NCBI GenBank assembly: GCA_032027005.1
Contig: JAVSMW010000006.1
Span: forward strand, 111,268-137,542
Direction of reading: 5' to 3'
Length of the DNA: 26,275 nucleotides
Source of the DNA: Thermincola sp.
Lineage (GTDB): Bacteria > Bacillota > Thermincolia > Thermincolales > UBA2595
A program made the translations under genes and the position numbers. Of the stretch, positions 5,075-26,275 are shown in pieces (position 1 is the stretch's first letter; each line of letters begins with the position of its first letter). The notes beneath the pieces are model-generated. The model was not told the DNA's origin, searched no databases, and was given only the letters and a program-made list of their open reading frames with translations.

Positions 5075-5082
5075 TTTTTTAT

Positions 5083-6082: not shown

Positions 6083-6277
6083 AAAAAAAGTTCTCGCACA
6101 ATCAAAAATTATTCGCATCCGAAGCTAGGATAAGTTTTCGGGACCAGGGTGGCGAAAATGTGTGGGAAATTTAAATAAAAATAATATTTGCCAATTTAAG
6201 AAGGGGGTGAAGCTTATGTTGTGAAGAACTTCAGTGGAGCCCGAATAAAACACATTAATAGGAGGTGCACAACTTTA

Positions 6278-7822
6278 ATGGCAGTAAAAAGAATTGATGA
6301 TCTGAGAGATTACCTTGATGTTCTGGATCAAATGGGTGAAATATGTCATGTTAAGGATGAAGTTGACTGGAAACTGGAAATGACGGGAATTGGAGCTATG
6401 TCCAACCGTATCGACGACAAAATCCCACTCTTTGAAAACATTAAAGGCTACCCCAAAGGTACCAGGGCGTCAACTGACCTCTACCGTGGCAGCCACGGAG
6501 CTTTGTGGCGGCGGATGGCCTTGTCCATCGGCTTATCCCCGGAAATTTCCTATTCAGATTACATGGATGAATACATTAACCGTTTCAATCACCCGATCCG
6601 CCCCATTGCCGTGGATAAGGGTTCATGCCAGGACGTTGTACTGATCGGGAAAGATGTCGATGTTTTAAAAACACTTCCGGTTCCGTATATCCACGACGGT
6701 GACGGCGGTCGTTACCTGACCATGCACGCGATGATTGTCAAGGATCCTGATTCGGAATGGGTCAACTGGGCCAATTACCGTGCACTAGTTAATACCAAGA
6801 ATAAGATCAGCTTTCTCTTCTGCCCTGGCCAGCAAAACCCCAACCTTTACTATTATAAGTATGAAGCTAGGAACCAGCCCATGCCGGTTGCCATAGCCAT
6901 TGGCGGGCACCCTGCGGTTTGGTATATGGCCACAACTCCATTGCCAGCAGGGGTCAGTGAGGTCGATTATATCGGCGGCATGATCCAAAAACCGGTTGAG
7001 TTGGTCAAGTGCGTGACGAATGATCTTTATGTGCCAGCAAATGCGGAGTATGTGATTGAGGGCGTTATGATGCCCCACGAACGCATTGATGAAGGTCCGT
7101 TCGGTGAGTATCTTGGTTACATGCACGGCCCGCGCCGTCCGATGCCTTTTGTTCGGGCTACGGCCATTACCCACCGGAAAAACCCGATCCTGCCGATCTG
7201 CGTTGAGGGAACCGGGGTAGGGGAGTCGAATAACGTCTGCAATACCAGTTTCAACGCTCTGTTAACCCCAGCGCTAATGGTTTTCCTGCGGCAGCTAGGT
7301 TATCCGGTCAAGTTTGTAACTGGTCCCGAACTTAACGCGTGGTCATCCCTGATTGCGGCTACCAAAATTCCTTATCCCGGGTATGCCAAAGAATTAGGCG
7401 AACTGCTACTGACCTGTCCCGGACCTTCCATGTACTATGACCTTACTTTCCTAGTGGATGAAGATATTGACATTACCGATATGGAAAAAGTTTGGGAAGA
7501 AATTGTTTTAAAAGCCCATCCAACAAAGGATTGGAATAACTTCGGCGACGCTGAAGCGCCAAGGTCGTCGCTGAATATCTACCAGACAGCCGAAGAAAAA
7601 GGAGCCCTAGCTAAGGCGTCCTCCAAGGGAAAAACGTCAAAATGCTGGATTGACGCCACAACCAAGGAATGGAACGAAACTACGGACGGACCGAAACGCA
7701 TGGAGTTCGATCTTTTATATCCGACCACTAAGGATTGGGTGACCAGCAACAAAGAAAAATACGACCTGCCAAAATATAAGGATTTCCGTGAGGAAGGTTT
7801 ACGCTGGATTGAACAAAAATAA
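6278..7822 (+). CDS. UbiD-like carboxylase/decarboxylase, alpha-type (module B)
   Basis: The ORF runs 6221..7822. I prefer the ATG at 6278 because AGGAGGTG sits 9 nt upstream. UbiD blocks: LRDYLDVLDQMGEI, HDGDGGRY, WVNWANYR, MPVAIAIGGHPA, NDLYVPANAEYVIEGVM..DEGPFGEYLGYM, ITHRKNPILP, FLVDEDIDI. Confidence 0.9.
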   Translation: MAVKRIDDLRDYLDVLDQMGEICHVKDEVDWKLEMTGIGAMSNRIDDKIPLFENIKGYPKGTRASTDLYRGSHGALWRRMALSIGLSPEISYSDYMDEYINRFNHPIRPIAVDKGSCQDVVLIGKDVDVLKTLPVPYIHDGDGGRYLTMHAMIVKDPDSEWVNWANYRALVNTKNKISFLFCPGQQNPNLYYYKYEARNQPMPVAIAIGGHPAVWYMATTPLPAGVSEVDYIGGMIQKPVELVKCVTNDLYVPANAEYVIEGVMMPHERIDEGPFGEYLGYMHGPRRPMPFVRATAITHRKNPILPICVEGTGVGESNNVCNTSFNALLTPALMVFLRQLGYPVKFVTGPELNAWSSLIAATKIPYPGYAKELGELLLTCPGPSMYYDLTFLVDEDIDITDMEKVWEEIVLKAHPTKDWNNFGDAEAPRSSLNIYQTAEEKGALAKASSKGKTSKCWIDATTKEWNETTDGPKRMEFDLLYPTTKDWVTSNKEKYDLPKYKDFREEGLRWIEQK

Positions 7823-7888: not shown

Positions 7889-8185
7889 ATGGCCAAGTAT
7901 GAGATGTGGGTTAAAGAGCTAAAAAGATTCAGGAATGAAATTCAGGATGGGACACCGGTAAAAGTGGATGTTCGAGACGAGAGCCTGAACTGGCATGCAG
8001 TGATAGCCATTATTTCGGAAACCCCGATCAAGGATGGAGTAGAAACAGTGATAGTTGGGGAAGGTGGACCGGTTTCCTATGTCAACAAGCCGGTATACCT
8101 TAAAATTGTCGAAGAACTGGACGAAGACGACCAATATGTTATCAAAGATATGGACAGATACAACAAAAGACTGGGTGATGTCTAA
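7889..8185 (+). CDS. Small hypothetical protein (98 aa) between the alpha and beta UbiD genes; candidate small subunit
   Basis: AGGAGGTG lies upstream and the gene is tightly packed (66 nt and 25 nt gaps). It has an acidic C-terminal segment, YLKIVEELDEDDQYV. I recognise no domain. Confidence 0.6.
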   Translation: MAKYEMWVKELKRFRNEIQDGTPVKVDVRDESLNWHAVIAIISETPIKDGVETVIVGEGGPVSYVNKPVYLKIVEELDEDDQYVIKDMDRYNKRLGDV

Positions 8186-15151: not shown

Positions 15152-16158
15152 TGGCAATAATTAAAAAGAAAACTAATAATATTAAGAAAATTACTTCATT
15201 CAATGTTAATCTTTCATGTGTTATTGATGAAGAAAGTGGCCGTATCGCCTGCGAGAAGTGCGAAAAGTTTTTTGACTGCAAGGAACAAAGCAAGTGGGAC
15301 GTTTATAAACATGGGCGGCTAGCGCTGGCCCAGCGGAAAATGTCGTCAATTAAACATAAAATTGCCATTGTTGGCGGCAAGGGTGGCGTGGGCAAGACCA
15401 TGCTGGCCGTCAACATTGCCGCCGGACTGGCCAAGCGCGGGAAACGGGTGGCGGTCCTTGATTCCGATTATGACGGGTCCAGCGTCCCGAGGATGCTGGG
15501 GGTGGCTGATAAAAAGCTTTATATGGGTGCACAGGGTATTGAACCGGTGGAAGCTTTGCTGGGTATCAAGGTGGTTTCCATGGGGAACCTGAGGAATGAT
15601 AACGATATTGTTACGTGGTATTCCGATAGCCGACGGGGAGCCACAGAAGAGTTTATTACTCATGTCAACTATGGTGAGCTTGATTACTTGATTGTTGATT
15701 TGCCGCCGGGCACCAGCGCCGACACGGTGAACAGCATGCTGTTTATCCCGGATATGACCGGTATTGTCTTCATTACTGTTCCTTCCGAGGTTTCTCAGGG
15801 GGTAGCCTTACGGGCTGCTACGATCTGCGGCAAGGGCGGCGTCAAAGGAATCGGGATTGTTGAGAATATGAGCGGTCATGTCTGCCGGCACTGCGATCAT
15901 CGTTCCGAGATATATTCTACAGGGGGCGGAGAAAAACTCGCCGAAGCTACGGGAATACCACTGATCGGCAAGTTGCCGGTTGAAGGTTATGCCGGTATGG
16001 CCTGTGATGAAGGTGTACCGTTTGTGGTCGCCTACCCGGAAAGCGCATCCGCCAAAATTATGGAAAAAGTTGTTGATAAAATAGAAGAAGAAGTTCTTAC
16101 CAGTAGACGCGATTTGAGCCACCTTAACACGGATTACGGAAAACGCTCCTGGTGGTAA
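15151..16158 (+). CDS. Mrp/Nbp35-family P-loop ATPase with N-terminal 4-Cys motif (paralogue 5)
   Basis: An ATGA overlap with the upstream stop suggests translational coupling. It has GGKGGVGKTM, DLPPGTSAD, C23-x10-C34-x2-C37-x5-C43 and CRHCD. Confidence 0.88.
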   Translation: MAIIKKKTNNIKKITSFNVNLSCVIDEESGRIACEKCEKFFDCKEQSKWDVYKHGRLALAQRKMSSIKHKIAIVGGKGGVGKTMLAVNIAAGLAKRGKRVAVLDSDYDGSSVPRMLGVADKKLYMGAQGIEPVEALLGIKVVSMGNLRNDNDIVTWYSDSRRGATEEFITHVNYGELDYLIVDLPPGTSADTVNSMLFIPDMTGIVFITVPSEVSQGVALRAATICGKGGVKGIGIVENMSGHVCRHCDHRSEIYSTGGGEKLAEATGIPLIGKLPVEGYAGMACDEGVPFVVAYPESASAKIMEKVVDKIEEEVLTSRRDLSHLNTDYGKRSWW

Positions 16159-16173
16159 AAAAATGCGTAGAAA

Positions 16174-16187
16174 GTTCGTATAAGAAC
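16174..16187. promoter_or_regulatory. Operator-like site GTTCGTATAAGAAC (13/14 match to the 5382 palindrome)
   Basis: It lies in the 248-bp gap upstream of the small-protein/UbiD/ligase/UbiX module. A weaker copy, TTTTGTATATGAAC, lies at 16238-16251. Confidence 0.45.
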
Positions 16188-16406
16188 AATAAAGTACTCT
16201 GGGAGAGTTCTGATTAAGGGGAGGTGATAAAAACGTTTTTTGTATATGAACACAAAAGTAAACCGGGGGAATCGGAGGGGAGGTGAAAATAAAGAAAAAT
16301 TTTAAGACGATTGACAGGAAGAGGATAAGTTATCTAGGGTTTTGCTTCACACGTTGCGGGAATAATTTGTTTATTTAATTTAAAAAGCAAAGGAGGAGAG
16401 GTTTTA

Positions 16407-16787
16407 ATGTACGAAAAACCGTCAAACCGTTTGGAAATCCATAAAAATTTTACTTTTGGACCTGATCCTGATGAATTGAAAAAGCAGGAAGGCCGGGAGG
16501 TTTACGATGTAATCATCCTGTCGGACTCCATTGATGAGCTTACCAGTCAACAGAATCAGGAAATTACGCTAGCCATCAGGTTGCTTACTCCTAAAGACAG
16601 AAAGATGAGGTACTGCACTAGGACGGTCAGTGCGATGATCAGCAGCGATCCGACCAAATACCGTGATCGTTTGCATGTGCGGTTCCAGCGGGGGTTATTG
16701 CATCCGAAACCCTGGAGTATTGAAATTGTTAAAGAACTTGAGGGCTTGATGAGCTTGGAAGCCGATCACACCATAGCACGTTCTTAA
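16407..16787 (+). CDS. Small hypothetical protein (126 aa) immediately upstream of a UbiD gene (the abcD position by synteny)
   Basis: AAGGAGGAGAGG lies upstream and the next gene follows after 22 nt. I recognise no domain by eye. The assignment rests only on gene order. Confidence 0.6.
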   Translation: MYEKPSNRLEIHKNFTFGPDPDELKKQEGREVYDVIILSDSIDELTSQQNQEITLAIRLLTPKDRKMRYCTRTVSAMISSDPTKYRDRLHVRFQRGLLHPKPWSIEIVKELEGLMSLEADHTIARS

Positions 16788-16809
16788 ATATTGATAGAAA
16801 GGAAAGGTG

Positions 16810-18345
16810 ATGTCCAAGATGTATCGTGATTTAAGAGGATATATTGACGCATTGGAAAAAAACAACCAGTTAGTCAGAACCAATAAAGAAGTGGACTGGG
16901 ATCTTGAAGCCGGCGCCATAGCCCGGCTTGGTTACCAGTTAGACTCAAAAGCCATGTTGATGGAAAATATTAAAGATTATCCTGGTTTCCGGTATCTGGG
17001 TGGTGTATTTAGCAACTGGCAGCGGGCAGCGATCGCCATCGGGCTAAATCCTAACGCCTCCCGGCGCGAAATCCAGGATACATATCGCGAAAGGCTGGAC
17101 CATCCGATTAAGCCAATTATTATTGAGGATGCTCCCTGTCAGGAAAATGTCATTACCGATGAAGACGTCAACCTGTTCGACCTGCCGGCCCCCATGGTTC
17201 ACGACGGTGATGGCGGCAGATACCCAACTACCTGGTCTTTTGTAGCCACTCCTTCATATAACACCGACTGGATCAACTGGGGGATGTACCGCCAGATGAT
17301 TCATAACGAAAGGACATTGGGCGGCCTGGTGCTGCCTTCCCAGGATATTGGTATCCAGTATTACGGTGGCTGGGAACCAGCAGGTGAAAAGATGCCCTTT
17401 GCCGCTGTGATTGGCGGTGAGGTATTGACCACTGCTGTGGCTGCCGTTCCCTACGGAGTTGGACGGAGCGAGGTTGATTTCGCCGGGGGCTTGCTCCTGG
17501 AGCCGGTGGAGTTGGTCAAGTGCGTTTCAGTTGACCTTCTGGTCCCGGCCAATGCCGAAATCATTATTGAAGGATATGTCAGCCCGAAAGAACGCTGCTA
17601 TGAAGGGCCTTTCGGAGAGTATACCGGTTACCGGACTTCGCCGCGGATGCCGCGGGTGGCCTACCACGTGACCGCCATTACTTACCGCGATAACGCTATT
17701 ATGCCCTTTTCTAATATGGGCGTGCCGACAGATGAATGCGATATGATCGCCAATACGCTCTGGCGGGCCGACCTGATGCGGGTTCTGGAAGAAAACGGTA
17801 TACCGGTACTTGATGTATCGATGCCGACGGAAATGGTTATGCACTCAGCATTCATTTCCATCAAGAAACCTTACAGCAGTATTCCCAATAAGGTAGCTAA
17901 GCTGATCTTCGGTGAAAAGAATACTGGTCTTTTCCTTCACCAGATTTATGTTTGCGATGAGGATGTTGATGTTCAGGATCTATCTCAGGTTATGCATGTT
18001 TTTGCCACAAAATGGCATCCGAAACGGGGAACGCATTTCTTCGACAAGACGGTCGGCGTGCCGCTGCACCCATTCCTTGACATGGAAGAGAGAACCTGGA
18101 GCAAGGCATCTAAGGTTTGCTTTGACTGCACCTGGCCCAGCGAATGGTCGCCTACGGCGGAAGTCCCGGTCCGCTCCAGCTTCTGGGATATTTACCCAGA
18201 ACGGGTTATAGAAAAGGTCTGCAGCACCTGGAAGGAGTTTGGCCAAGATCAGGATATGCTGTCGGCACTGGCAGATTACAACCGCATCGGTCGTTGGCCT
18301 GGTAGTGAGACTTTTAATAAACCGGTAGTGACCAAGAAAAAGTAG
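16810..18345 (+). CDS. UbiD-like carboxylase, alpha-type (AbcA-like by synteny)
   Basis: The ORF starts at 16807. ATG 16810 or ATG 16819 could be the start, and AAAGGAAAGG lies upstream. UbiD blocks: LRGYIDALEKNNQL, HDGDGGRY, WINWGMYR, MPFAAVIGGE, LLVPANAEIIIEGYV..YEGPFGEYTGYR, ITYRDNAIMPF, IYVCDEDVDV. Confidence 0.9.
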   Translation: MSKMYRDLRGYIDALEKNNQLVRTNKEVDWDLEAGAIARLGYQLDSKAMLMENIKDYPGFRYLGGVFSNWQRAAIAIGLNPNASRREIQDTYRERLDHPIKPIIIEDAPCQENVITDEDVNLFDLPAPMVHDGDGGRYPTTWSFVATPSYNTDWINWGMYRQMIHNERTLGGLVLPSQDIGIQYYGGWEPAGEKMPFAAVIGGEVLTTAVAAVPYGVGRSEVDFAGGLLLEPVELVKCVSVDLLVPANAEIIIEGYVSPKERCYEGPFGEYTGYRTSPRMPRVAYHVTAITYRDNAIMPFSNMGVPTDECDMIANTLWRADLMRVLEENGIPVLDVSMPTEMVMHSAFISIKKPYSSIPNKVAKLIFGEKNTGLFLHQIYVCDEDVDVQDLSQVMHVFATKWHPKRGTHFFDKTVGVPLHPFLDMEERTWSKASKVCFDCTWPSEWSPTAEVPVRSSFWDIYPERVIEKVCSTWKEFGQDQDMLSALADYNRIGRWPGSETFNKPVVTKKK

Positions 18346-18469
18346 AATGAAGGGTTAAAAAAAGTATTCATGGTTTCTGGTTGTTAAACATGAGCAGGTA
18401 CAGAAGATGATTTTTAAAATGGAAAACGTAACTTTTGTGCCTGCTCAGACTAATTTTAAAGGTGGTGGA

Positions 18470-20032
18470 ATGATGACCGGGGGTAGCTTGATAATTCCTG
18501 AAAATTATAACGCTGTATCTTTTTTCGTTGACCGTCACCTGGCCGAAGGGCGTGGAGATAAGACGGCAATCTATTACCTGGATCAAAAGATTTCCTACCG
18601 GGAAGTAGCCGAAAATGTCAACAAAACGGGCAATGCCTTTTTAAATCTCGGAATTGAAACGGAGGACAGGATTCTTCTTTTACTTCTGGATTGTCCGGAA
18701 TTTGTTTACAGCTTTTTTGGCGCCATTAAAATCGGAGCTGTTCCTATACCCACCAATACGATGCTTAAGCCTACCGATTACGAATACCTTTTAAAAGACA
18801 GCCGGGCTAAGGCAATTGTTGTCAGTGAGGAACTGATTGAAAATATTAATGAAATTTCCAGCAACTTGCCCTCTGTTGAGCATATTATCGTCGTCGGTCG
18901 GTCGGGGCCGGGACAATTGAGTTTTCATAATCTTATTAAAAATGCCTCTCCGGTATTGAGCTTGGCTCCGACCATCAAGGATGATCCCTGTTTCTGGCTA
19001 TATAGTTCCGGCACCACTGGCTTCCCCAAAGGAGCAGTTCACTTGCAACATGATATGGTTTACTGTGCGGAGAACTATGCCCAAAAAGTTCTTAATATCA
19101 ATGAAGATGATGTGACATTTTCCGTAGCCAAGCTGTTTTTTGCTTACGGCCTGGGTAACGGGCTTTACTTTCCGTTCTCAGTGGGAGCGGCTACAGTTTT
19201 ATCTCCCCAACGTCCACTGCCTGAACATGTTTTTGAAGTTATTGAACGATACCGGCCAACGCTTTTCTTTGGTGTTCCGACTTCGTATTACGCTCTCCTA
19301 CAGTTAGCCGAGAAAGAAAACAAATATGATTTGAGTTCCATCCGTTTATGTGTTTCAGCAGGAGAAGCACTGCCGGAAATTATCTATCAACGCTGGATGG
19401 AAGAATTTGGCCTGGTAATTTTAGACGGTATCGGCTCGACCGAAATATTACACATCTTTATTTCCAACCAGCCCGGAGAGGTAAAACCCGGGAGCAGCGG
19501 CCGTCTGGTCCCTGGCTATGAAGCAAAAATCCTTGATGAGGATGGATGTGAAGTATCAACTGAAGAACAGGGGACCCTTTATATTAAAGGAGACAGCATT
19601 GCTTCTTATTATTGGAATAAACACGAAAAAAGCAAGCAGACTTTTGTTGGCGAATGGATCAATACCGGCGACAGGTATTACCGGGATAAGGATGGATATT
19701 TTTGGTATATGGGACGCGGGGATGATATGATTAAGAGCGGCGGGATTTGGGTGTCTCCGGTCGAGGTGGAAAGCACTTTGCTGCAGCACACGGCTGTTTT
19801 GGAGTGTGCCGTAACCGGGTGGGCCGATTCCGACGGGCTAATCAAACCCAAAGCCTTTGTGGTGCTGAAGCAAAACTCTCACGGAAACCAGGCCTTGGTG
19901 GAGGAGTTGCAGCAATTTGTCAAAAACAAAATTGCTCCGTACAAGTACCCGCGCTGGCTAGAATTTATTGATGAACTTCCGAAAACCGCTACCGGAAAGA
20001 TTCAAAGGTATAAGCTCCGGCAAGGGGGATAG
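18470..20032 (+). CDS. Aryl-CoA ligase (AMP-forming) of the benzoate-/4-hydroxybenzoate-CoA ligase subfamily
   Basis: The ORF starts at 18407. I prefer ATG 18470 or 18473, after AAAGGTGGTGG. Motifs: YSSGTTGFPKGAVH, YNAVSFFVDRHLAEGRGDKTAI, WINTGDRYYRDKDGYFWYMGRGDDMIKSGGIWVSPVEVE, PKTATGKIQR. Confidence 0.88.
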   Translation: MMTGGSLIIPENYNAVSFFVDRHLAEGRGDKTAIYYLDQKISYREVAENVNKTGNAFLNLGIETEDRILLLLLDCPEFVYSFFGAIKIGAVPIPTNTMLKPTDYEYLLKDSRAKAIVVSEELIENINEISSNLPSVEHIIVVGRSGPGQLSFHNLIKNASPVLSLAPTIKDDPCFWLYSSGTTGFPKGAVHLQHDMVYCAENYAQKVLNINEDDVTFSVAKLFFAYGLGNGLYFPFSVGAATVLSPQRPLPEHVFEVIERYRPTLFFGVPTSYYALLQLAEKENKYDLSSIRLCVSAGEALPEIIYQRWMEEFGLVILDGIGSTEILHIFISNQPGEVKPGSSGRLVPGYEAKILDEDGCEVSTEEQGTLYIKGDSIASYYWNKHEKSKQTFVGEWINTGDRYYRDKDGYFWYMGRGDDMIKSGGIWVSPVEVESTLLQHTAVLECAVTGWADSDGLIKPKAFVVLKQNSHGNQALVEELQQFVKNKIAPYKYPRWLEFIDELPKTATGKIQRYKLRQGG

Positions 20033-20087
20033 CTTCTCAAATATTGTTCTATGTAAATACTTGGACAGGAAAATGGAGGGATGAAGA

Positions 20088-20681
20088 ATGAAAAAGCTTG
20101 TTGTGGGGATATCCGGCGCAACAGGTGCCATTTACGGAATCAGACTATTGGAAGTACTACGCGAACTTGAGGTAGAGACGCATCTGGTTGTATCTGAAGG
20201 AGCGGCGCGGACTATCCGGATGGAAACGCAGTATGAATTTTCCGAAGTGACCAAGTTAGCTACACATGTTTATGACATTAAAAATGTCGGAGCTTCCATA
20301 GCAAGCGGATCTTTTCCAATCGATGGTATGGCTATCGTTCCCTGTTCCATTAAAAGTCTTTCGGCTTTGGCTAACTCTTACAATGATAATTTGTTAATTA
20401 GGGCGGCCGATGTTAACCTTAAAGAAAAAAGGAAAGTAGTGGTTATGGTTCGGGAGACGCCGTTGCATGTCGGCCACCTGCGCCTGATGATGCAGGTGGC
20501 CGAAGCCGGCGGGGTTATTCTTCCTCCAATGCCTGCTTTTTACCACCAGCCCCGGAGCCTCCAGGAAATAATTGATCAAACAATAGGGAAAGTTCTGGAT
20601 CAATTTGGTTTAGATGGTAAACTTTTTTCTCGATGGGAAGGCAGCGGAATATTAAGGTCTGTCAGCAAAAAAAGCATTTAG
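20088..20681 (+). CDS. ubiX: Flavin prenyltransferase UbiX (prFMN synthase)
   Basis: MKKLVVGISGATGAIYGIRLLEVL, MAIVPCSIKSLSALANSY.DNLLIRAADV.LKE.RK, PPMPAFYH. These form a classic UbiX/Pad1 pattern, and the protein is 197 aa. Confidence 0.93.
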   Translation: MKKLVVGISGATGAIYGIRLLEVLRELEVETHLVVSEGAARTIRMETQYEFSEVTKLATHVYDIKNVGASIASGSFPIDGMAIVPCSIKSLSALANSYNDNLLIRAADVNLKEKRKVVVMVRETPLHVGHLRLMMQVAEAGGVILPPMPAFYHQPRSLQEIIDQTIGKVLDQFGLDGKLFSRWEGSGILRSVSKKSI

Positions 20682-20690
20682 GGAAGTAAA

Positions 20691-20740
20691 CAGGGCCGCT
20701 TTAGAAATCTTTGAATATGTAAGCGGCCCTGTTATTTACT
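20691..20740 (+). terminator. Rho-independent terminator candidate ending the carboxylase locus
   Basis: A perfect 11-bp stem, CAGGGCCGCTT (20691-20701) with AAGCGGCCCTG (20721-20731), encloses a 19-nt loop. The tail is TTATTT. Confidence 0.65.
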
Positions 20741-20784: not shown

Positions 20785-21816
20785 ATGGATTCTCAGAAAA
20801 AAAGTTTGAGAGCCGTTATTTTCAACCCCGAAGGTGTTTTGTTTACTACTCGGGAAAACAGTAACCCACTGTCGGAGGGAATTCAAGAAGAGCAGCAGTT
20901 GATTTCTCCTTCTAAAATTGACATAAAGCCTGGCGCCGTAGAAAATTTGGTTTTGCTTAATCGAATGGGTTTCAAAATAGGCCTTTTGTTGTTAAGTCAT
21001 CACCGGGATTTTGAGCAGGCTTTAATTCATTTGGGCTTAATTTCCAAAAATATTTTTCTAATTTCCGATGCTAATACTCAAAATTACTATCAAGAAGGTC
21101 ATAAGTTGATCTTATTAATTAAAGAATGTCTGCAACAAATGGAAGTTAAGATTAACGAAACTTTTTACGTGGGAAGTACACCTGATGATTATTGGGCTGG
21201 GCATATTATCGGGATGAAAACATTAGCTATCGGCAATGGCTTAAATAATCAGAATTTGCATCAGAATTTGCCACAGCCGACTAATATTTTTCCGGAAATT
21301 CATGATCTGATAAATTTTATTTACGAGTTAGAAAAAAGTCAGCGTACACTCTTTTTAACCGAAAATATTTATAAGACTTTTCGCGGTTTAAGCTCAAAAT
21401 TCTCAGTTTTTTCAGAACGTTATGGGATTCCTCCCGCTCAAATGGCTGCCATGCAAAAACTTCGCAAGAAAGATGGGGTTGCTATATCTCAACTCGCCAA
21501 AGAGATGGGACTTTTGCTTAGTTCAATTTCCGGTTTGGTTAACAGGATGATTAAGCAAGGATTAATTACAAAAAAGAAGGATGAACGGGATAGCCGGGTT
21601 AGCAAGATTTATGTTACTGAGAAAGGAAGGGAAATCATTGGTAAATTATCTTCTTTTAGCCTGGAGATAGAGAACTATTTTGAAAATTATGTCGACAAGG
21701 AAGATCTTTTATGTTTAAGTAGAAATTTACAGAAAATTACCAGTGTACTGGATACGAAACCATATTTTAACTCTGAATCCAAAACATACACCGAGTTTCG
21801 GGAAGCGAATAATTGA
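20785..21816 (+). CDS. Fusion regulator: N-terminal degenerate HAD-like domain plus C-terminal MarR-type winged helix
   Basis: The C-terminal part is typical MarR: ISQLAKEMGLLLSSISGLVNRMIKQGLITKKKDERDSRVSKIYVTEKGREII. The N-terminal part follows the HAD layout, but motif I is VIFNPEGVL (both Asp lost) and motif IV is VGSTPDD. Confidence 0.75.
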   Translation: MDSQKKSLRAVIFNPEGVLFTTRENSNPLSEGIQEEQQLISPSKIDIKPGAVENLVLLNRMGFKIGLLLLSHHRDFEQALIHLGLISKNIFLISDANTQNYYQEGHKLILLIKECLQQMEVKINETFYVGSTPDDYWAGHIIGMKTLAIGNGLNNQNLHQNLPQPTNIFPEIHDLINFIYELEKSQRTLFLTENIYKTFRGLSSKFSVFSERYGIPPAQMAAMQKLRKKDGVAISQLAKEMGLLLSSISGLVNRMIKQGLITKKKDERDSRVSKIYVTEKGREIIGKLSSFSLEIENYFENYVDKEDLLCLSRNLQKITSVLDTKPYFNSESKTYTEFREANN

Positions 21817-21925: not shown

Positions 21926-22011
21926 AAATAGATTCATTTGTACTGCATAAGTCCTGAAAAAAATCACGTATATATGACCATCTAAATATTTGGATTGGAA
22001 AATATTATAAT

Positions 22012-23853
22012 CTTGAATTCGGAAAGTAAACTATAGAAATTCAGTATTATCAAGGCTTTAAAACCATTTTTTAGTGTAAAAATATTGACAAAAAAGAGAG
22101 AACACCACTTCTTTTCCGGAATTGTTTAAGTACCCAAACCAAAACATTCCAAAGGATGGTGACCCTCTAAAATGATGGTATCACAACTCATAACCATAAA
22201 TCAATTAGAAAATTTGTCAAGGCAACAAAGGCGTCAACTAGAACGAGAATACGAGAGAAAACTACATTCTGTACAACGCCGGACACGCAATTGTAATCTT
22301 CCGGTTAGTTTCGACAATCTGTCTATTACTGCATTCGGTAACTTCGGTAATTTGGAGGCTTTCAAGCAGGCTATCGATTTTCGAAGTATGTTTAATCGGG
22401 TTCGACTTAATCGTCATCATAACTGCAAATATACTGACGCTGAGTTACTGGACACCATTATTGATGCCATTTCGCTGGGATTATTACGGTTTTCCCACAT
22501 GAATATCCTGCAAAATGATCCCGGATATCAGAAAATCAAAGAGATAAAGCGGATACCGGATGAGAGTACTTTGCGGAATTTTTTGTCTCTGATATGTGAG
22601 CAGAAGGCCTTAGTTCAACTGGCTCTAGTTAATCAAGAACTGCTGTCACTTAAGGCCAAATCTGATGCACCCCGTGAAGTTTGGCTGGATATTGACGACA
22701 GTGTTCTCACAGTTTTCGGAAACCAAGAGGGGTCCGAAGTAGGTTACAATCCCCGTTACCACGGGCGGCCTTCCTACAAAGTAAAGGTAGCCTTTATCGC
22801 TGGAACTTGCGAACTGGTAAATGCCAGATTATACTGTGGGAAAGTAGCCAGCAACGGTCAGTTTATGGATTTCCTTAAAGAGACCTTGGCCATATTAACT
22901 GCCCAGAATATCATTGTAAAAGGCATCCGCATGGATAAAGGCTTCTTTGACGAAGATAACTTTGCCTACCTGGAAGAACAAGGTATCGAGTATGTTTGCA
23001 AAGCCAAGCTAACCAGTACTATGCGTAAGGTCATCAAATATCTGGATGAACAAAACCAGTGGCAGCAGTTGAGTAAACATTATGCTGCAGCAGAAATCAC
23101 TCTTCCCCTGCCGAAATGGTCAAAAGCGCGCAGGTTTGTGTTAATCCGGGAGACCCAGAAGCCACAGGTAATTGATAATCAACTTTGCTTTGACCTGGAA
23201 ACCCATGATTATCAAGTGATAGTAACTTCCAGTGAGGAATACAACCCAGAGGAGGTATGGCACGAATACAACAAGCGCTGTAACATTGAAAATAAAATTG
23301 ATGAACTCAAAGTAGGCTTGGGTTTTGAAAAAATGAGCCAGGAAGAAATGGATAGAAATGTTGCCTTTATGTGGCGGAAAGTACTGTCCTACAACCTGCT
23401 CAATTGGTTTCGACTGGCCTTGTTGGATGGCAAGGATAGTCACGCAGAAGTGCCAACTATCCGGCGCAAAATATTGAATGTACTAGGGAATATAGTTGGT
23501 AGCAACCGTTATCGGCATGTAAAATTAGCCCCAAACCCTTGGTTGCAAAAAGTATTGAAGACTATCAAAGAGAAGTTGCAAATATTCCTCAGCCAACAGG
23601 TCTGGATTGCCGTAAGTTCGGGCTAATACTAAACAAGGACGAAAACCAAAACCCAATAACCACTTTCCCATTCATTTATAGGCGGGGCTTGTTAATTACA
23701 CTCTAAACTCTGGCACTTTTGGGTAATGTAACCATAATACCAATTGCCTGACAAGTCAGGTGTCTAATGAACCAAAAACCGCAGTGCCATATCCTGCAAT
23801 TTTGTATTTTTAAGCCATTAGGTGAAATCCGGGAAGTACTTTCCGATTTCAAG
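22012..23853 (+). mobile_element. IS element (~1.84 kb), IS1380-family-like, complete copy
   Basis: The terminal inverted repeats are CTTGAATTCGGAAAGTA (22012-22028) and the reverse complement of 23837-23853, CTTGAAATCGGAAAGTA (16/17 match). The flanks show a possible 5-bp duplication, ATAAT, at 22007-22011 and 23854-23858. The element contains a single DDE transposase ORF. Confidence 0.8.
22172..23626 (+). CDS. DDE transposase, IS1380-family-like
   Basis: The 484-aa product has the block GYNPRYHGRPSYKVKVAFIAGTCELVNARLYCGKVASNGQFMDFL. This resembles the IS1380 signature (GYNP..G..SY.P...F......LR.GN..S..G). A C-terminal YNKRCNIENKIDELK block is also present. Confidence 0.8.
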   Translation: MMVSQLITINQLENLSRQQRRQLEREYERKLHSVQRRTRNCNLPVSFDNLSITAFGNFGNLEAFKQAIDFRSMFNRVRLNRHHNCKYTDAELLDTIIDAISLGLLRFSHMNILQNDPGYQKIKEIKRIPDESTLRNFLSLICEQKALVQLALVNQELLSLKAKSDAPREVWLDIDDSVLTVFGNQEGSEVGYNPRYHGRPSYKVKVAFIAGTCELVNARLYCGKVASNGQFMDFLKETLAILTAQNIIVKGIRMDKGFFDEDNFAYLEEQGIEYVCKAKLTSTMRKVIKYLDEQNQWQQLSKHYAAAEITLPLPKWSKARRFVLIRETQKPQVIDNQLCFDLETHDYQVIVTSSEEYNPEEVWHEYNKRCNIENKIDELKVGLGFEKMSQEEMDRNVAFMWRKVLSYNLLNWFRLALLDGKDSHAEVPTIRRKILNVLGNIVGSNRYRHVKLAPNPWLQKVLKTIKEKLQIFLSQQVWIAVSSG

Positions 23854-25005: not shown

Positions 25006-26196
25006 ATGAACCAAGGTGAGGAATATTTCCGCAAACTTATACAGTTATCAGCTGAAGAACAGCTGAGTGCAAGTGAGGAGCGGTTCCGGAGTTTGGTAGA
25101 GGCATCTCCCCTTGGGATTATGGTTTTTGACACCGAGGGTGTAATTACAACCATTAATTCCAGTATGCTGAAGATATTGGGTTCGCCTTGTCCGGGAGAA
25201 GCTGCTGATATTACCCTGCCTTCGGGTCAACCGTTATTGGATCCAGTTATTTCAGACAGAATTTTAAAGTGCATAGAATCCGGAGAATCTGAGGTATATG
25301 AACACTCTTGTACCTTAGAAGAGAATTCAGTCTGGTTACAGTTTTACATCAGCCCTCTGAACAATGGCCATGGAAGGGTAACAGGCGCTCTGGCCCTGGT
25401 GGAGGAGATTTCTGACAGGAAGAATATGGAAAATGAACTTATTGAAAAAGACCGGAGAATCCAAAAGGAACTTCAATTGGCCAATGCCATTCAATCGAGT
25501 TTATTTCCTATCAATTTACCCCAGGTTCCCGGCGTTACCGTTGCTGCCACGGCAGTATCAGCCAATGAAGTGGGTGGGGACTATTGTGACCTGTTTGTCA
25601 CCAAATATAATAAACTAGGCATTGCTATAGGGGATGTGATGGGGAAGGGTGTTCCGGCTGCCCTTTTTGTGGCTTTGACTTACGCCTTCGTTAGAAACTA
25701 CGCCTTGGAGTTGGATGAGCCCAGCACTTTGGTGAACCGGGTAAACAGGGGACTTTACGCACAGCTTGAGCTGACCCAGCAGTTTATTACCTTTTTCTAT
25801 GGTATTTATGACCCCGAGTCCCGAAATATAGTTTATACCAATGCCGGTCACAACCCGCCATTAGTATATCGGGCGGCCACCGGAGAATGTGAAGGCCTGC
25901 CTGTTCGTGATTTTATAATGGGTGGGATGCTGAATGCCCAGTACCGGGAAGGCTTATTTTCCCTGTTTCCAGGAGATGTGGCGCTTTTTTACACTGATGG
26001 TTTGAAAGAAGGCCGAAATCGGGCTAAGGAACAGTTTGGTATGGATCGGATTATCAACTGTCTCAAAGAAAACCATATTCATGATCCTGCCAGCATTCAG
26101 GAAATCCTCTCTTATGAGTTTGCAGAATTTCTTGATGGAGAACCGCCCTATGATGATGTAACAATGGTTGTTATTAAACTTGAAATCGGAAAGTAA
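25006..26196 (+). CDS. PAS-domain PP2C-type (SpoIIE/RsbU-like) serine phosphatase
   Basis: The PAS domain reads ERFRSLVEASPLGIMVFDTEGVITTINSSMLKILG. The PP2C/SpoIIE blocks are ANAIQSSLFP, ANEVGGDYCDLF, GIAIGDVMGKGVPAALF, YTNAGHNPP, LFYTDGL and YDDVTMVVIK. I prefer the ATG at 25006, after GGAGGG. Confidence 0.85.
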   Translation: MNQGEEYFRKLIQLSAEEQLSASEERFRSLVEASPLGIMVFDTEGVITTINSSMLKILGSPCPGEAADITLPSGQPLLDPVISDRILKCIESGESEVYEHSCTLEENSVWLQFYISPLNNGHGRVTGALALVEEISDRKNMENELIEKDRRIQKELQLANAIQSSLFPINLPQVPGVTVAATAVSANEVGGDYCDLFVTKYNKLGIAIGDVMGKGVPAALFVALTYAFVRNYALELDEPSTLVNRVNRGLYAQLELTQQFITFFYGIYDPESRNIVYTNAGHNPPLVYRAATGECEGLPVRDFIMGGMLNAQYREGLFSLFPGDVALFYTDGLKEGRNRAKEQFGMDRIINCLKENHIHDPASIQEILSYEFAEFLDGEPPYDDVTMVVIKLEIGK

Positions 26197-26275
26197 ACTA
26201 TAGAAATACTGTGTTATCAAGGCTTTAGAACTATTTTTTAGTGCAAAAAATTTGACAAAAAAAGAGGAAACACCA
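26179..26275 (+). mobile_element. Left end of a second, diverged copy of the IS1380-like element (runs off the right edge)
   Basis: 26179-26275 aligns with 22012-22109 with scattered substitutions and a 1-bp indel. It starts with CTTGAAATCGGAAAGTA, identical to the right IR of copy 1, and has the same orientation as copy 1. Confidence 0.8.

What the first reader, a model, noticed from the sequence alone, without database searches (positions are those of the whole stretch)
16407..20681. Small protein-UbiD-benzoate-CoA ligase-UbiX order matches the proposed anaerobic benzene carboxylase locus
Seen in sequence: a 126-aa protein, an alpha-type UbiD, a ligase with the benzoate/4-hydroxybenzoate-CoA ligase C-terminal signature (GDRY..D.DGY..Y.GR.DDM.K..G.WVSP.EVE), and UbiX. 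All four are closely spaced and end in a strong terminator.

Established knowledge (my recollection, not verified here): the benzene-induced locus from an iron-reducing Peptococcaceae enrichment was described as abcD-abcA-bzlA-ubiX.

Inference: this module is an orthologue or close paralogue of that locus. If so, the upstream ATPases and small proteins in this window would be parts of the benzene carboxylation machinery that have not been appreciated.
Basis: partly seen in the sequence, partly recalled or inferred. Interest (0 to 1): 0.7.

Follow-up and report, generated by a model that had tools for sequence, protein, structure and literature searches.

The report
Known anaerobic benzene carboxylase gene cluster
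This stretch is the already published putative "anaerobic benzene carboxylase" gene set (abcD-abcA-bzlA-ubiX) of a nitrate-reducing, benzene-degrading Thermincolales bacterium. The useful extra is that its most faithful gene neighbours are not the ligase or UbiX but pairs of iron-sulfur-type ATPases, whose role is still untested.

Summary
16407-20681 holds four same-strand genes: a 126-aa gamma-like protein, an alpha-type UbiD, a benzoate-CoA-ligase-family enzyme and UbiX. A strong hairpin follows them.

The proteins are exact matches to a "Thermincola sp." MAG from the Canadian NRBC benzene culture. They are 97%, 98% and 96% identical to sequences I infer to be AbcD, AbcA and BzlA of culture BF. 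This is the published locus itself.

The four genes are the tail of a 16-gene cluster (6221-20681). It carries a counterpart of each subunit type reported for the N47/NaphS2 naphthalene carboxylase cluster, some recognisable only weakly or through intermediates. It also has a second ATPase pair, a zinc-ribbon protein, a CTP-type riboflavin kinase and a HAD hydrolase.

In seven lineages with AbcA at 60% identity or more, AbcD plus at least two Nbp35-like ATPases always sit next to AbcA. The ligase and UbiX usually do not. Conversely, relatives of the ATPase at 44% identity or more lie in UbiD clusters, and those at 40% or less never do.

The ATPases are recognised in the naphthalene literature. 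One benzene paper noted them but read them as a "multidrug resistance" protein. Benzene carboxylation itself remains biochemically unproven.

The parts
16407..16787 (+). abcD: 126-aa gamma-like small subunit with a roughly 45-aa N-terminal extension
   Evidence: Pfam PF09662 at 30.8 bits. 97% identical to UPI0001DC1278. 52-67% identical to the small ORF directly upstream of AbcA-like genes in six other lineages. 36% identical to the NaphS2 87-aa small ORF, the gamma gene (NPH_5856) by position in the published gene order. Only 35 of 1.84 billion representatives match the profile, and 3 of them cover the N-terminal part.
16819..18345 (+). abcA: alpha-type UbiD, the likely catalytic prFMN subunit (the ORF is open from GTG 16807)
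   Evidence: Three UbiD Pfam domains. 98% identical to UPI0001DC1279. Equivalents of Fdc1 N168, R173, E233, E277 and E282 are present, with H191 replaced by D as in all AbcA-like proteins and NaphS2 alpha.
18407..20032 (+). bzlA: benzoate-CoA ligase family enzyme
   Evidence: TIGR02262 at 670.9 bits against a cut-off of 375. 96% identical to UPI0001DC127A. Solved relatives: anthranilate-CoA ligase 4wv3 at 538 bits, benzoate-CoA ligases 2v7b at 492 and 4eat at 454.
20088..20681 (+). ubiX: flavin prenyltransferase that makes prFMN
   Evidence: NF004685 at 265.5 bits against a cut-off of 188; TIGR00421 at 254 bits.
20690..20732 (+). Hairpin after ubiX, a probable terminator
   Evidence: 12-bp perfect stem, 19-nt loop, dG -26.2 kcal/mol, z -5.1. 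Weak T tail; not called by the consensus scan.
14102..15151 (+). Mrp4: Nbp35-like P-loop ATPase, first member of the pair that tracks AbcAD
   Evidence: PF10609 at 236 bits. N-terminal C-x3-C-x2-C-x5-C, GKGGVGKS and CxxC motifs. Orthologues at 76%, 72%, 67%, 66% and 55% identity sit next to AbcA-like genes in L001, L090, L091, L002 and L005.
15151..16158 (+). Mrp5: Nbp35-like P-loop ATPase, second member of the pair that tracks AbcAD
   Evidence: PF10609 at 236.7 bits. C-x10-C-x2-C-x5-C plus CxxC. Orthologues at 74%, 65%, 68%, 62% and 54% identity. Closest solved proteins are Mrp/Cfd1-type Fe-S carriers 2ph1, 8zkc and 6g2g, matching residues 62-314 only. Metagenome relatives at 44% identity or more are UbiD-linked; those at 40% or less never are.
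16173..16188 (.). Palindromic motif AGTTCGTATAAGAACA between Mrp5 and abcD, a candidate operator
   Evidence: One of four copies in the window, against 0.1 expected. GTTCG[T/C]ATAAGAAC is an invariant island in otherwise diverged Mrp5-abcD spacers of L093, L094 and L001.
6221..7822 (+). UbiD4: first gene of the cluster (other callers start it at 6278)
   Evidence: UbiD family, TIGR00148 at 251 bits. 85% identical to L001 and 36% to NaphS2 NPH_5859-type. Catalytic triad complete, with H191 replaced by Q. The 90% cluster holds UPI0001DC1269.
7889..8185 (+). 98-aa gamma-like small protein between UbiD4 and UbiD5
   Evidence: 54% identical to the L001 102-aa protein. Linked through the L002 84-aa protein to the NaphS2 83-aa small ORF (NPH_5860 by position). 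The cluster holds UPI0001DC126A.
8211..9707 (+). UbiD5: degenerate UbiD, probably non-catalytic
   Evidence: The Fdc1 N168, E233 and E282 equivalents are S, A and N. 77% identical to L001 and 31% to NaphS2 NPH_5861-type.
9801..10730 (+). Mrp2: Nbp35-like ATPase, counterpart of N47_K27520 / NPH_5857
   Evidence: 57% identical to NaphS2 L007:8569 and 84% to L001. Motifs.
10774..11697 (+). Mrp3: Nbp35-like ATPase, counterpart of N47_K27510 / NPH_5858
   Evidence: 51% identical to NaphS2 L007:9594 and 76% to L001.
11740..12141 (+). 133-aa gamma-like small protein, counterpart of the NaphS2 139-aa small ORF (NPH_5862 by position)
   Evidence: BLASTP: 32% identity, E 2.5e-5 to the NaphS2 139-aa protein; 55% to L001.
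12186..12389 (+). 67-aa FmdB-type zinc-ribbon protein
   Evidence: PF09723 at 51 bits; TIGR02605. Homologues in L001 (58%) and in the minimal Nitrospinota locus L005 (45%).
12421..12858 (+). CTP-dependent (archaeal-type) riboflavin kinase, inferred to supply FMN for prFMN
   Evidence: PF01982 at 101.5 bits. The same gene type recurs in L001, the N47 locus L011, L065 and L100.
12930..13607 (+). HAD-IA phosphatase of unknown substrate
   Evidence: HAD_2 at 102 bits. Best NCBIfam hits are CTE7 and YjjG types. HAD hydrolases are also listed in the N47 cluster (PMC6849830).
13670..14065 (+). 131-aa gamma-like small protein preceding Mrp4
   Evidence: 66% identical to L001. Its L001 orthologue (66% identical) gives weak BLASTP links to AbcD-like and gamma proteins, E 1e-4 to 4e-3; the window protein's own hits are E 0.03-0.04.
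20785..21816 (+). HAD-like domain fused to a MarR domain, a candidate cluster regulator
   Evidence: MarR at residues 216-272 and HAD_2 at 43-149. A MarR gene occupies the same position in L001. Co-transcription of MarR is noted in PMC5852087.
5381..6083 (.). Three further copies of the palindrome (5381, 6046, 6068) in the AT-rich region upstream of UbiD4
   Evidence: 0 or 1 mismatch each. The region is 34% GC and internally duplicated.

Best explanation
This is the published putative anaerobic benzene carboxylase locus abcD-abcA-bzlA-ubiX, in the genome of the Thermincolales (GTDB family UBA2595) benzene degrader of the NRBC nitrate-reducing culture.

The four genes are the 3' end of a same-strand, closely spaced 16-gene cluster (6221-20681). 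This cluster is a rearranged and expanded version of the N47/NaphS2 naphthalene carboxylase cluster.

Most likely mechanism:
- Shown by sequence: AbcA is a UbiD-family enzyme with the prFMN-type catalytic residues intact.
- Inferred: AbcA adds CO2 to benzene to give benzoate, working in a large complex. The complex would include AbcD and three other gamma-like small proteins, UbiD4 (possibly catalytic), UbiD5 (degenerate, structural) and two heterotypic pairs of Nbp35-like Fe-S/ATP-binding proteins.
- Inferred: BzlA uses ATP to trap benzoate as benzoyl-CoA and so pulls a near-equilibrium or endergonic carboxylation forward.
- Inferred: UbiX makes prFMN, and the riboflavin kinase (perhaps also the HAD phosphatase) supplies its flavin precursor.
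- Inferred, low confidence: a conserved palindrome ahead of abcD and of UbiD4, together with the adjacent HAD-MarR protein, provides regulation.
For: Identity of the locus:
- Exact protein matches to the Thermincola sp. MAG. The contig length equals the MAG N50 in PMC11465651.
- 97%, 98% and 96% identity to the inferred BF AbcD, AbcA and BzlA.
- UniParc identifiers 1269 to 127A run in the same order as the window genes from UbiD4 to BzlA.

Family assignments. Catalytic residues.

Correspondence with the NaphS2 cluster:
- AbcA 49%, AbcD 36%, Mrp2 57%, Mrp3 51%, UbiD4 36%, UbiD5 31% identity.
- The 133-aa protein is 32% identical to its counterpart; the 98-aa protein is linked through an intermediate.
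- UbiX is present in both clusters.

Linkage of the ATPases:
- AbcD plus at least two Mrp genes are adjacent to AbcA in 7 of 7 lineages at 60-100% identity, in three different gene orders.
- Among 80 genome loci with AbcA relatives, Mrp neighbours occur only at 44% identity or more.
- Among 37 metagenome loci with Mrp5 relatives, all seven at 44% identity or more that hold enough DNA contain UbiD genes. None of the 27 at 40% or less do, including nine loci of 10 kb or more.

Literature:
- AbcAD were detected only in benzene-grown BF cells; abcAD and bzlA were highly transcribed only with benzene in this culture's parent (summary in PMC5852087).
- N47 naphthalene carboxylase is proposed to be a roughly 750-kDa complex encoded by one cluster (PMC12016498). 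It is reported to comprise UbiD-like, ParA/MinD-like and linker proteins (PMC10570749).
- Naphthalene carboxylation appears ATP dependent, by an unresolved route (PMC12016498).
Against: - No enzyme activity has ever been shown for AbcAD. As of 2026, benzene carboxylation is still called a proposal.
- Ligase substrate cannot be read from sequence: the best solved relative is an anthranilate-CoA ligase, and PMC5852087 says the same for 4-hydroxybenzoate versus benzoate.
- bzlA is missing from the 83%-identical locus L001. The ligase and UbiX are both missing from the Nitrospinota locus and from L090-L092. AbcAD-Mrp modules may therefore act on other substrates in other organisms.
- The mapping of the UniParc identifiers to BF accessions is inferred, not looked up.
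- Complex formation, Fe-S binding and ATPase activity are inferred from motifs and from the naphthalene system.
- A 248-nt gap separates Mrp5 from abcD, so a single operon is not established.
Confidence: 0.75

Rival explanations
1. AbcAD is a UbiD (de)carboxylase for a different aromatic substrate, for example a phenolic or other benzene-derived intermediate. Benzene itself would be activated by another, unidentified enzyme, and the locus would only be co-induced.
For: - No in vitro activity has been reported.
- AbcA scores 431 bits against the phenylphosphate carboxylase alpha model, and AbcD hits the gamma family.
- Ligase specificity is unresolved (PMC5852087).
- AbcAD-Mrp modules occur in groundwater Nitrospinota MAGs with no ligase nearby.
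- Other benzene degraders (ORM2, BzS1) lack abcA and appear to use different chemistry.
Against: - AbcA is below the PpcA equivalog cut-off (431 against 564.6), and AbcD is far below the gamma cut-off (32.5 against 135.55).
- There is no phenylphosphate-synthase or delta-subunit gene in the window.
- AbcAD proteins were reported in benzene-grown but not phenol- or benzoate-grown BF cells (PMC5852087).
- The nearest characterised system by gene content is the carboxylase of another unsubstituted arene, naphthalene.
Confidence: 0.15
2. The Nbp35-like ATPases are ordinary Fe-S cluster carriers that mature other Fe-S enzymes of the aromatic pathway. They would not be functional parts of the carboxylase.
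For: - The closest solved and curated relatives are Fe-S carrier proteins: 2ph1, 8zkc, Cfd1 6g2g, and MrpORP and ApbC.
- The CxxC motif is the carrier-type bridging-cluster site.
- L002 carries Fer2/molybdopterin genes in the same cluster.
Against: - Minimal loci (L005, L092) contain only Mrp, UbiD, gamma-like and zinc-ribbon genes, with no Fe-S client.
- Linkage is reciprocal and clade-specific.
- The proteins come as conserved heterotypic pairs, with orthology maintained across lineages.
- The N47 homologues were reported as carboxylase complex components (PMC10570749).
Confidence: 0.2
3. The four-gene module is a diverged paralogue of the BF locus with another role.
For: - The window holds five further UbiD paralogues and a second UbiD-UbiD-UbiD-Mrp block (1-5074).
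- The window UbiX is alone in its 90% cluster.
Against: - 96-98% identity over full length to the inferred BF proteins, with the same order of neighbouring genes.
- Cluster membership is not informative here: BF AbcA, at 98% identity, also sits in a different 90% cluster.
Confidence: 0.02

Closest known systems
[quoted passage not shown] 2010), with its counterparts in the Canadian (Luo et al. 2014) and Dutch (PMC5852087) nitrate-reducing cultures
   Same: Same four genes in the same order and on the same strand. 97%, 98% and 96% identity to the inferred BF AbcD, AbcA and BzlA. The upstream genes from UbiD4 onward follow the same order as the BF UniParc series. The window comes from the Canadian culture's degrader.
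   Different: Essentially nothing for the four genes. Block A (1-5074) has no BF counterpart in the clusters I could read. UbiX identity to BF was not measured.
Naphthalene carboxylase cluster of N47 (N47_K27540-K27460) and NaphS2 (NPH_5855-5865)
   Same: Alpha-type UbiD, a gamma-like protein, two Mrp/ParA-MinD-like ATPases, two further UbiD-like proteins and small 'linker' proteins. UbiX and flavin-supply genes lie nearby: RibBA in NaphS2, RibK in N47, HAD in N47 (PMC6849830). AbcA-like and NaphS2 alpha share the H191-to-D change.
   Different: - Identities are only 31-57%.
- The gene order is rearranged: the UbiD4 block comes first and abcDA last.
- The benzene cluster adds a second ATPase pair (Mrp4/Mrp5), a fourth gamma-like protein, a zinc-ribbon protein and an in-cluster ligase.
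- UbiD4 keeps the full catalytic triad, whereas its NaphS2 counterpart has lost the arginine.
Phenylphosphate carboxylase PpcABCD of Thauera / Aromatoleum
   Same: UbiD-type alpha-like subunit and a small gamma-like subunit. This was the original basis for naming AbcA and AbcD.
   Different: - AbcA and AbcD are below the equivalog cut-offs (431 against 564.6; 32.5 against 135.55).
- There is no delta-type phosphatase subunit and no phenylphosphate synthase in the window.
- Ppc clusters are not described as having Nbp35-like ATPases (my recollection, not tested).
Eukaryotic Nbp35 / bacterial Mrp-ApbC Fe-S carrier ATPases (SIMIBI P-loop NTPases)
   Same: Deviant Walker A GKGGVGK(S/T), a C-terminal CxxC and, like Nbp35, an N-terminal four-cysteine motif ending C-x2-C-x5-C. 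The best solved matches are Mrp/Cfd1 proteins.
   Different: - All five are below the MrpORP and ApbC equivalog cut-offs.
- They occur as conserved heterotypic pairs inside UbiD carboxylase clusters.
- They form a group separated from generic Mrp at about 40-44% identity.
- No Fe-S client protein lies in the minimal loci.

Membership tests
abcDA-bzlA-ubiX benzene carboxylase locus (culture BF) | AbcA orthologue (near-identical alpha-type UbiD) | tested here: met
   98% identity over 508 aa to UPI0001DC1279. The equation with D8WWP8 / GU357992 is inferred from consecutive identifiers and equal lengths.
abcDA-bzlA-ubiX benzene carboxylase locus (culture BF) | AbcD orthologue directly upstream of abcA | tested here: met
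   97% identity over 126 aa to UPI0001DC1278. The gap to abcA is 31 nt.
abcDA-bzlA-ubiX benzene carboxylase locus (culture BF) | BzlA ligase and UbiX directly downstream on the same strand | tested here: met
   BzlA is 96% identical to UPI0001DC127A. UbiX follows after 55 nt. UbiX identity to BF was not measured.
abcDA-bzlA-ubiX benzene carboxylase locus (culture BF) | Expression induced specifically by benzene | not testable with these tools
   Reported for BF and for this culture's parent, as summarised in PMC5852087. The primary paper PMC4068673 is not held.
abcDA-bzlA-ubiX benzene carboxylase locus (culture BF) | Catalyses benzene + CO2 to benzoate | not testable with these tools
   Never shown biochemically, according to the papers read.
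UbiD family prFMN-dependent (de)carboxylases | UbiD_N, UbiD and UbiD_C architecture, and subfamily score | tested here: met
   Pfam 69.7, 202.1 and 79.6 bits. TIGR00148 at 292.7 bits against a cut-off of 244.85.
UbiD family prFMN-dependent (de)carboxylases | Catalytic R-E-E and metal/phosphate ligands (Fdc1 R173, E277, E282; N168, H191, E233) | tested here: met
   AbcA has N, R, D, E, E, E at these positions, H191 being replaced by D. UbiD5 fails at three of the six positions.
Phenylphosphate carboxylase alpha and gamma (TIGR02723, TIGR02725 equivalogs) | Score at or above the curated equivalog cut-off | tested here: not met
   AbcA 431 against 564.6; AbcD 32.5 against 135.55. Related to Ppc, but not Ppc.
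Benzoate-CoA ligase family (TIGR02262) | Score at or above the subfamily cut-off | tested here: met
   670.9 bits against 375.25.
Benzoate-CoA ligase family (TIGR02262) | Benzoate, rather than hydroxy- or aminobenzoate, as substrate | tested here: inconclusive
   The best solved relative is anthranilate-CoA ligase 4wv3 (538 bits), ahead of benzoate-CoA ligases (492, 454). HbdA scores 411 against a cut-off of 1000.
UbiX flavin prenyltransferase | Score at or above the subfamily cut-off | tested here: met
   NF004685 at 265.5 against 188; TIGR00421 at 254.1 against 108.9.
Naphthalene-carboxylase-type multi-subunit UbiD complex (N47/NaphS2) | Homologues of each reported subunit type: alpha, gamma, two Mrp/ParA-MinD, two further UbiD and small linker proteins | tested here: met
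   Pairwise identities 31-57%; small proteins give E values of 1.6e-9 and 2.5e-5, or are linked transitively.
Naphthalene-carboxylase-type multi-subunit UbiD complex (N47/NaphS2) | Physical high-molecular-mass complex of these proteins | not testable with these tools
   Only gene linkage was tested. The roughly 750-kDa complex is reported for N47 only (PMC12016498).
Mrp/Nbp35 Fe-S P-loop ATPases | Deviant Walker A, a CxxC bridging-cluster motif and an Nbp35-type N-terminal four-cysteine motif | tested here: met
   GKGGVGK and CxxC are invariant and the four N-terminal Cys are 90% or more conserved in 11 sequences. PF10609 scores 236-260 bits.
Mrp/Nbp35 Fe-S P-loop ATPases | Binds Fe-S clusters and hydrolyses ATP | not testable with these tools
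   Motif-level inference only.

The most novel reading that the evidence does not exclude
The Nbp35-like proteins are not Fe-S delivery factors. They would be a dedicated clade of carboxylase partners that bind ATP and Fe-S clusters and are required for prFMN chemistry on unactivated arenes.

There would be two heterotypic pairs. Mrp2/Mrp3 is shared with naphthalene carboxylase. Mrp4/Mrp5 is specific to AbcAD-type enzymes and more tightly linked to them than the ligase or UbiX.

Like NifH or the activator ATPases of benzoyl-CoA reductase, they would use nucleotide-driven conformational change, with or without electron transfer through a bridging cluster. This could drive the unfavourable first step (arene addition to prFMN). 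Alternatively it could generate and keep the oxidised prFMN form without O2.

That would make anaerobic benzene carboxylase a directly ATP-dependent enzyme, and would settle whether the ATP requirement seen for naphthalene carboxylation is direct.
Probability: 0.3. Interest if true: 0.8.

Novelty: already known. Interest (0 to 1): 0.3.

Why it matters
Anaerobic activation of benzene is one of the last unsolved reactions in hydrocarbon microbiology, and abcA is already used as a field marker for it. Re-identifying the locus adds nothing new.

The comparative result does sharpen what should be expressed and purified. The conserved unit is AbcD-AbcA plus a pair of Nbp35-like ATPases, set within a full naphthalene-carboxylase-like subunit complement and a flavin-supply set. 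AbcAD alone, or AbcAD with the ligase and UbiX, is probably not enough. This may help explain why activity has not been reconstituted. It also makes the question "is arene carboxylation directly ATP dependent?" testable with defined mutants.

Tried and rejected
- **Luo et al. 2014 (PMC4068673):** the primary transcriptome paper for this culture is not held. I relied on summaries in PMC5852087 and PMC11465651.
- **BF AbcA contig:** looking up the contig for the inferred BF AbcA (P0183) found nothing on record. BF synteny therefore rests on the order of UniParc identifiers.
- **AbcD fold:** the AlphaFold model has mean pLDDT 63.9. Foldseek against PDB gave no match with E of 0.001 or better, and a PDB sequence search found nothing. 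No fold assignment was made.
- **Riboswitches:** the Rfam gathering scan of the whole window gave no hit, so there is no FMN or other riboswitch ahead of RibK or UbiX.
- **Terminator scan:** it missed the post-ubiX hairpin because of its 19-nt loop. Folding was needed.
- **HAD as a Ppc delta subunit:** rejected. The best hits of the HAD at 12930-13607 are HAD-IA CTE7/YjjG types, and phenyl_P_delta is not among the best 25.
- **Zinc-ribbon protein as a VdcD-like UbiD partner:** only the generic FmdB family is hit. Left open.
- **'Paralogue, not orthologue':** rejected on 96-98% identity.
- **Palindrome in other loci:** exact-pattern searches in 129 loci found nothing. An alignment of the spacers then showed a conserved variant, GTTCG[T/C]ATAAGAAC.
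- **90% cluster membership as a proxy for identity:** misleading. BF AbcA is 98% identical yet sits in another cluster.

Full report
**1. The observation**

The window carries 24 substantial ORFs, all on the + strand. At the reported coordinates there are four genes.
- A 126-aa protein (16407-16787) hits Pfam Phenyl_P_gamma at E 3.4e-7 and 30.8 bits, against a gathering score of 25.
- A UbiD protein (16807-18345) has all three UbiD domains. The NCBI-annotated start is 16819. It scores 431 bits against the phenylphosphate carboxylase alpha model and 181 against beta.
- A 541-aa ligase (18407-20032) scores 670.9 bits on the benzoate-CoA ligase family model, whose cut-off is 375. It contains the quoted C-terminal motif.
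- UbiX (20088-20681) scores 265.5 bits against a cut-off of 188.

The gaps between these genes are 31, 61 and 55 nt. After ubiX there is a perfect 12-bp GC-rich stem with dG -26.2 kcal/mol and z -5.1. Its loop is 19 nt and its T-tract is weak, so the consensus terminator scan missed it.

**2. What the locus is**

- Sixteen window proteins are exact matches to NCBI entries MDT3699763-82 / MDT3703200-19 from a 'Thermincola sp.' MAG. The longest NCBI contig is 277,970 bp.
- That length equals the N50 of the 20-contig Thermincolales MAG from the nitrate-reducing benzene culture NRBC. The two accession series fit the two deposited versions of that MAG (PMC11465651).
- The same 90% clusters contain UniParc entries UPI0001DC1269, 126A, 126B, 1271, 1272, 1274, 1277, 1278, 1279 and 127A. 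Their numerical order follows the window gene order from UbiD4 to BzlA.
- Direct comparison gives 97% identity (AbcD-like against 1278), 98% (AbcA-like against 1279) and 96% (ligase against 127A).
- I infer that these entries are the BF-culture proteins. The basis is their 2010-era consecutive numbering and equal lengths, and the consecutive UniProt entries D8WWP7-D8WWQ0 listed for BF AbcD, AbcA, BzlA and UbiX in PMC5852087.
- That paper also reports more than 96% identity and the same order in a Dutch culture, and cites the Canadian culture as the third example.

The finding is therefore the published locus itself, in the organism in which it was studied transcriptomically.

**3. The surroundings**

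The four genes end a run of 16 same-strand genes (6221-20681) with gaps of -1 to 93 nt, apart from 248 nt before abcD. The order is:

UbiD4, 98-aa protein, UbiD5, Mrp2, Mrp3, 133-aa protein, 67-aa FmdB-type zinc ribbon, CTP-dependent riboflavin kinase, HAD-IA phosphatase, 131-aa protein, Mrp4, Mrp5, AbcD, AbcA, BzlA, UbiX.

- Upstream there is a hairpin, then a 1.2-kb AT-rich spacer. Beyond that lies a higher-GC block (1-5074) holding a UbiD fragment, UbiD2, UbiD3 and Mrp1.
- Downstream are a HAD-MarR fusion, a DDE transposase, a MarR and a PAS-SpoIIE phosphatase.

**4. Comparison with the naphthalene system**

The NaphS2 contig holding the closest named relative of AbcA (48-49% identity) reads: UbiD, 87 aa, Mrp, Mrp, UbiD, 83 aa, UbiD, 139 aa, UbiD, 93 aa, UbiX, RibBA. 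The published annotation of the N47 cluster is alpha, gamma, MRP, ParA/MinD-MRP, UbiD, hypothetical, UbiD, hypothetical, UbiD, then two HAD hydrolases (PMC6849830).

Pairwise identities map the two clusters onto each other:
- AbcA to alpha, 49%.
- Mrp2 to the first Mrp, 57%, and Mrp3 to the second, 51%.
- UbiD4 to NPH_5859-type, 36%, and UbiD5 to NPH_5861-type, 31%.
- The block-A UbiD fragment to the fourth NaphS2 UbiD, 39%.

The small proteins map as follows:
- AbcD to the NaphS2 gamma protein: 36% identity, E 1.6e-9.
- The 133-aa protein to the NaphS2 139-aa protein: 32%, E 2.5e-5.
- The 98-aa protein to the NaphS2 83-aa protein, through an intermediate.
- The 131-aa protein: only its L001 orthologue links weakly to AbcD-like and gamma proteins.

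These small proteins appear to share a C-terminal [KR][IV][ILV]E-acidic motif. On these mostly weak or transitive links I treat them as one gamma-like superfamily.

The benzene cluster thus contains a counterpart of every subunit type reported for the naphthalene carboxylase complex: three UbiD-like, two ParA/MinD-like and three linker proteins (PMC10570749). The N47 complex is proposed to be about 750 kDa (PMC12016498). The benzene cluster adds a second ATPase pair, a fourth small protein, a zinc ribbon and an in-cluster ligase.

**5. Which UbiD is catalytic**

I aligned the paralogues through the AbcA-Fdc1 alignment and read off six positions.
- AbcA keeps the equivalents of Fdc1 N168, R173, E233, E277 and E282. 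H191 is replaced by D. This change is shared by every AbcA-like protein examined and by NaphS2 alpha.
- UbiD4 is also complete, with H191 replaced by Q.
- UbiD5 has S, A and N at the N168, E233 and E282 positions, so it is probably non-catalytic. Its NaphS2 and L002 counterparts have also lost E282.

**6. Are the ATPases really linked to AbcAD?**

*Forward test.* I looked at contigs encoding AbcA relatives at 83%, 78%, 71%, 63%, 62% and 60% identity.
- All carry a 124-127-aa AbcD-like gene directly upstream of the AbcA-like gene, 52-67% identical to AbcD.
- All carry two or three PF10609 ATPases next to it, in three different arrangements: upstream, downstream or flanking.
- Those ATPases fall into Mrp4-type (55-76% identity) and Mrp5-type (54-74%).
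- UbiX is adjacent only in the 83% locus. A BzlA-grade ligase is adjacent only in the window and its 86% relatives L093 and L094.
- In 80 species-representative genome loci with AbcA relatives, Mrp genes within 10 kb occur in only four: Nitrospinota (60%), N47 (48%), NaphS2 (48%) and one Thermodesulfobacteriota MAG (44%). The many loci at 45% identity or less have none.

*Reverse test.* I looked at 37 metagenome loci encoding Mrp5 relatives.
- Of the ten at 44-86% identity, seven contain UbiD genes. The other three are contigs of 1.2-4.8 kb.
- All 27 at 40% identity or less lack UbiD genes, including nine loci of 10 kb or more.

The conserved core is therefore AbcD-AbcA-Mrp-Mrp, and these ATPases form a group specific to UbiD clusters.

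**7. What the ATPases look like**

An 11-sequence alignment shows an invariant GKGGVGK(S/T) and an invariant CxxC. It also shows a 90%-or-more conserved N-terminal C-x3(or x10)-C-x2-C-x5-C. This is the two-site layout of eukaryotic Nbp35; that comparison rests on my own knowledge. The closest solved proteins are Mrp/Cfd1 Fe-S carriers, and they match only the P-loop domain. All five window proteins are below the MrpORP and ApbC equivalog cut-offs.

**8. Mechanism**

Shown:
- family membership;
- intact catalytic residues in AbcA;
- the gene linkages described above.

Inferred:
- AbcA carboxylates benzene by prFMN chemistry, as proposed for naphthalene (1,3-dipolar cycloaddition; PMC12016498).
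- BzlA pulls the reaction by forming benzoyl-CoA.
- UbiX and RibK supply prFMN. The HAD may be a riboflavin-pathway phosphatase or a DMAPP phosphatase, but this is speculative.
- The extra UbiD-like proteins, small proteins and ATPases build a large complex.

Whether the ATPases couple ATP directly is open. For naphthalene, 'carboxylation seems to depend on ATP' but it is 'not clear yet' whether directly or through the ligase (PMC12016498). Minimal loci have no Fe-S client protein, which argues against a plain carrier role.

**9. Regulation (side result)**

- The palindrome AGTTCGTATACGAACA occurs four times with at most one mismatch, against 0.1 expected. Three copies lie ahead of UbiD4 and one lies 15 nt after the Mrp5 stop codon.
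- Exact searches in other loci found nothing.
- An alignment of the Mrp5-abcD spacers from the window, L093, L094 and L001 shows GTTCG[T/C]ATAAGAAC as an invariant island in otherwise diverged sequence.
- This is a candidate operator, possibly for the adjacent HAD-MarR protein. It suggests that abcDA-bzlA-ubiX may have its own promoter.

**10. Novelty and verdict**

The four-gene finding is already known. The suggestion that the upstream ATPases and small proteins belong to the machinery is well supported by linkage, but it is only partly new.
- The naphthalene and phenanthrene literature lists and discusses their homologues.
- A benzene paper noted a co-transcribed 'multidrug resistance protein MRP homologue', which misreads the Mrp name.
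- I found no paper in the searchable library linking the benzene cluster to Nbp35-type Fe-S ATPases.

What this analysis adds:
- the subunit-by-subunit mapping between the two clusters;
- the AbcAD-specific Mrp4/Mrp5 pair;
- the reciprocal linkage tests;
- the degenerate state of UbiD5;
- the narrowness of the long-form AbcD family: 35 of 1.84 billion representatives match, and three of them cover the N-terminal extension.

Benzene carboxylase activity remains unproven.

Noticed in passing
window 5075-6220: An AT-rich (34% GC) 1.2-kb spacer lies between Mrp1 and UbiD4 and contains an internal duplication: 5177-5280 / 5671-5774 at 86%, 5294-5326 / 5787-5819 at 88%, and 5325-5373 / 5986-6034 at 92%. 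A hairpin sits at 5083-5106, just after the Mrp1 stop. A small ORF with a strong AGGAGG site (about 5845-6069, 74 aa, MFKKQNTT...TGTCCGGGGDGFGGLFDYKTSSYTNKN) ends in a Cys/Gly-rich tail, and its 3' end overlaps two copies of the palindrome. NCBI numbering leaves one CDS (MDT3699765) unaccounted for here.
   Followed up: partly
window 5381-5396, 6046-6061, 6068-6083, 16173-16188; L093, L094 and L001 Mrp5-abcD spacers: The palindrome AGTTCGTATACGAACA occurs four times against 0.1 expected. The copy between Mrp5 and abcD is conserved as GTTCG[T/C]ATAAGAAC in three related clusters whose flanking spacer sequence has diverged. It is a candidate operator, perhaps for the HAD-MarR protein at 20785-21816.
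   Followed up: partly
window 1-5074: A second, higher-GC block (51-57% against 36-51% for the other genes in the window) encodes a UbiD fragment (39% identical to the fourth NaphS2 UbiD), UbiD2, UbiD3 and Mrp1 (58% identical to Mrp2). None of its protein clusters contains a BF-series UniParc entry. It may be another arene carboxylase set or a horizontally acquired duplicate.
   Followed up: partly
window 22008-22095 and 26175-26262: An 88-nt direct repeat (89% identical) brackets a DDE_Tnp_1_4 transposase, a MarR and a PAS-SpoIIE phosphatase. A DDE_Tnp_1_4 gene fragment also sits beside the NaphS2 naphthalene carboxylase cluster (L007:617-1042).
   Followed up: no
L007:1531-3450 (NaphS2) and L011:about 1925 on the minus strand (N47): Both naphthalene degraders carry a fused double-Mrp protein (639 aa in NaphS2, with two PF10609 domains) a few kb from the carboxylase cluster. 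The N47 locus also has a CTP-type riboflavin kinase next to it. The NaphS2 cluster ends in UbiX followed by RibBA.
   Followed up: no
L014 (CAZCTP010000002.1, Thermodesulfobacteriota MAG): Eleven UbiD-family ORFs lie in tandem within 21 kb with no Mrp gene. Other contigs of the same MAG (L039, L065) carry further UbiD genes, and L065 has one Mrp and a RibK.
   Followed up: no
L005 / L010 (Nitrospinota groundwater MAG JACOWJ010000024.1) and L092: A minimal module is present: Mrp, AbcA-like, AbcD-like, a second AbcA-like (64% identical to the first, with R173 replaced by H), Mrp and a zinc ribbon. It has no ligase and no UbiX. An ECF riboflavin-transporter S component lies about 2 kb downstream. 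The substrate is unknown.
   Followed up: partly
L099-L101 (JGI metagenome contigs): A further cluster type has Mrp5 relatives at 44-45% identity: ligase, UbiD, Mrp, Mrp, UbiD, UbiD, then RibK and UbiD. It shows that the Mrp-pair-plus-multi-UbiD design extends beyond the AbcA and naphthalene clades.
   Followed up: no
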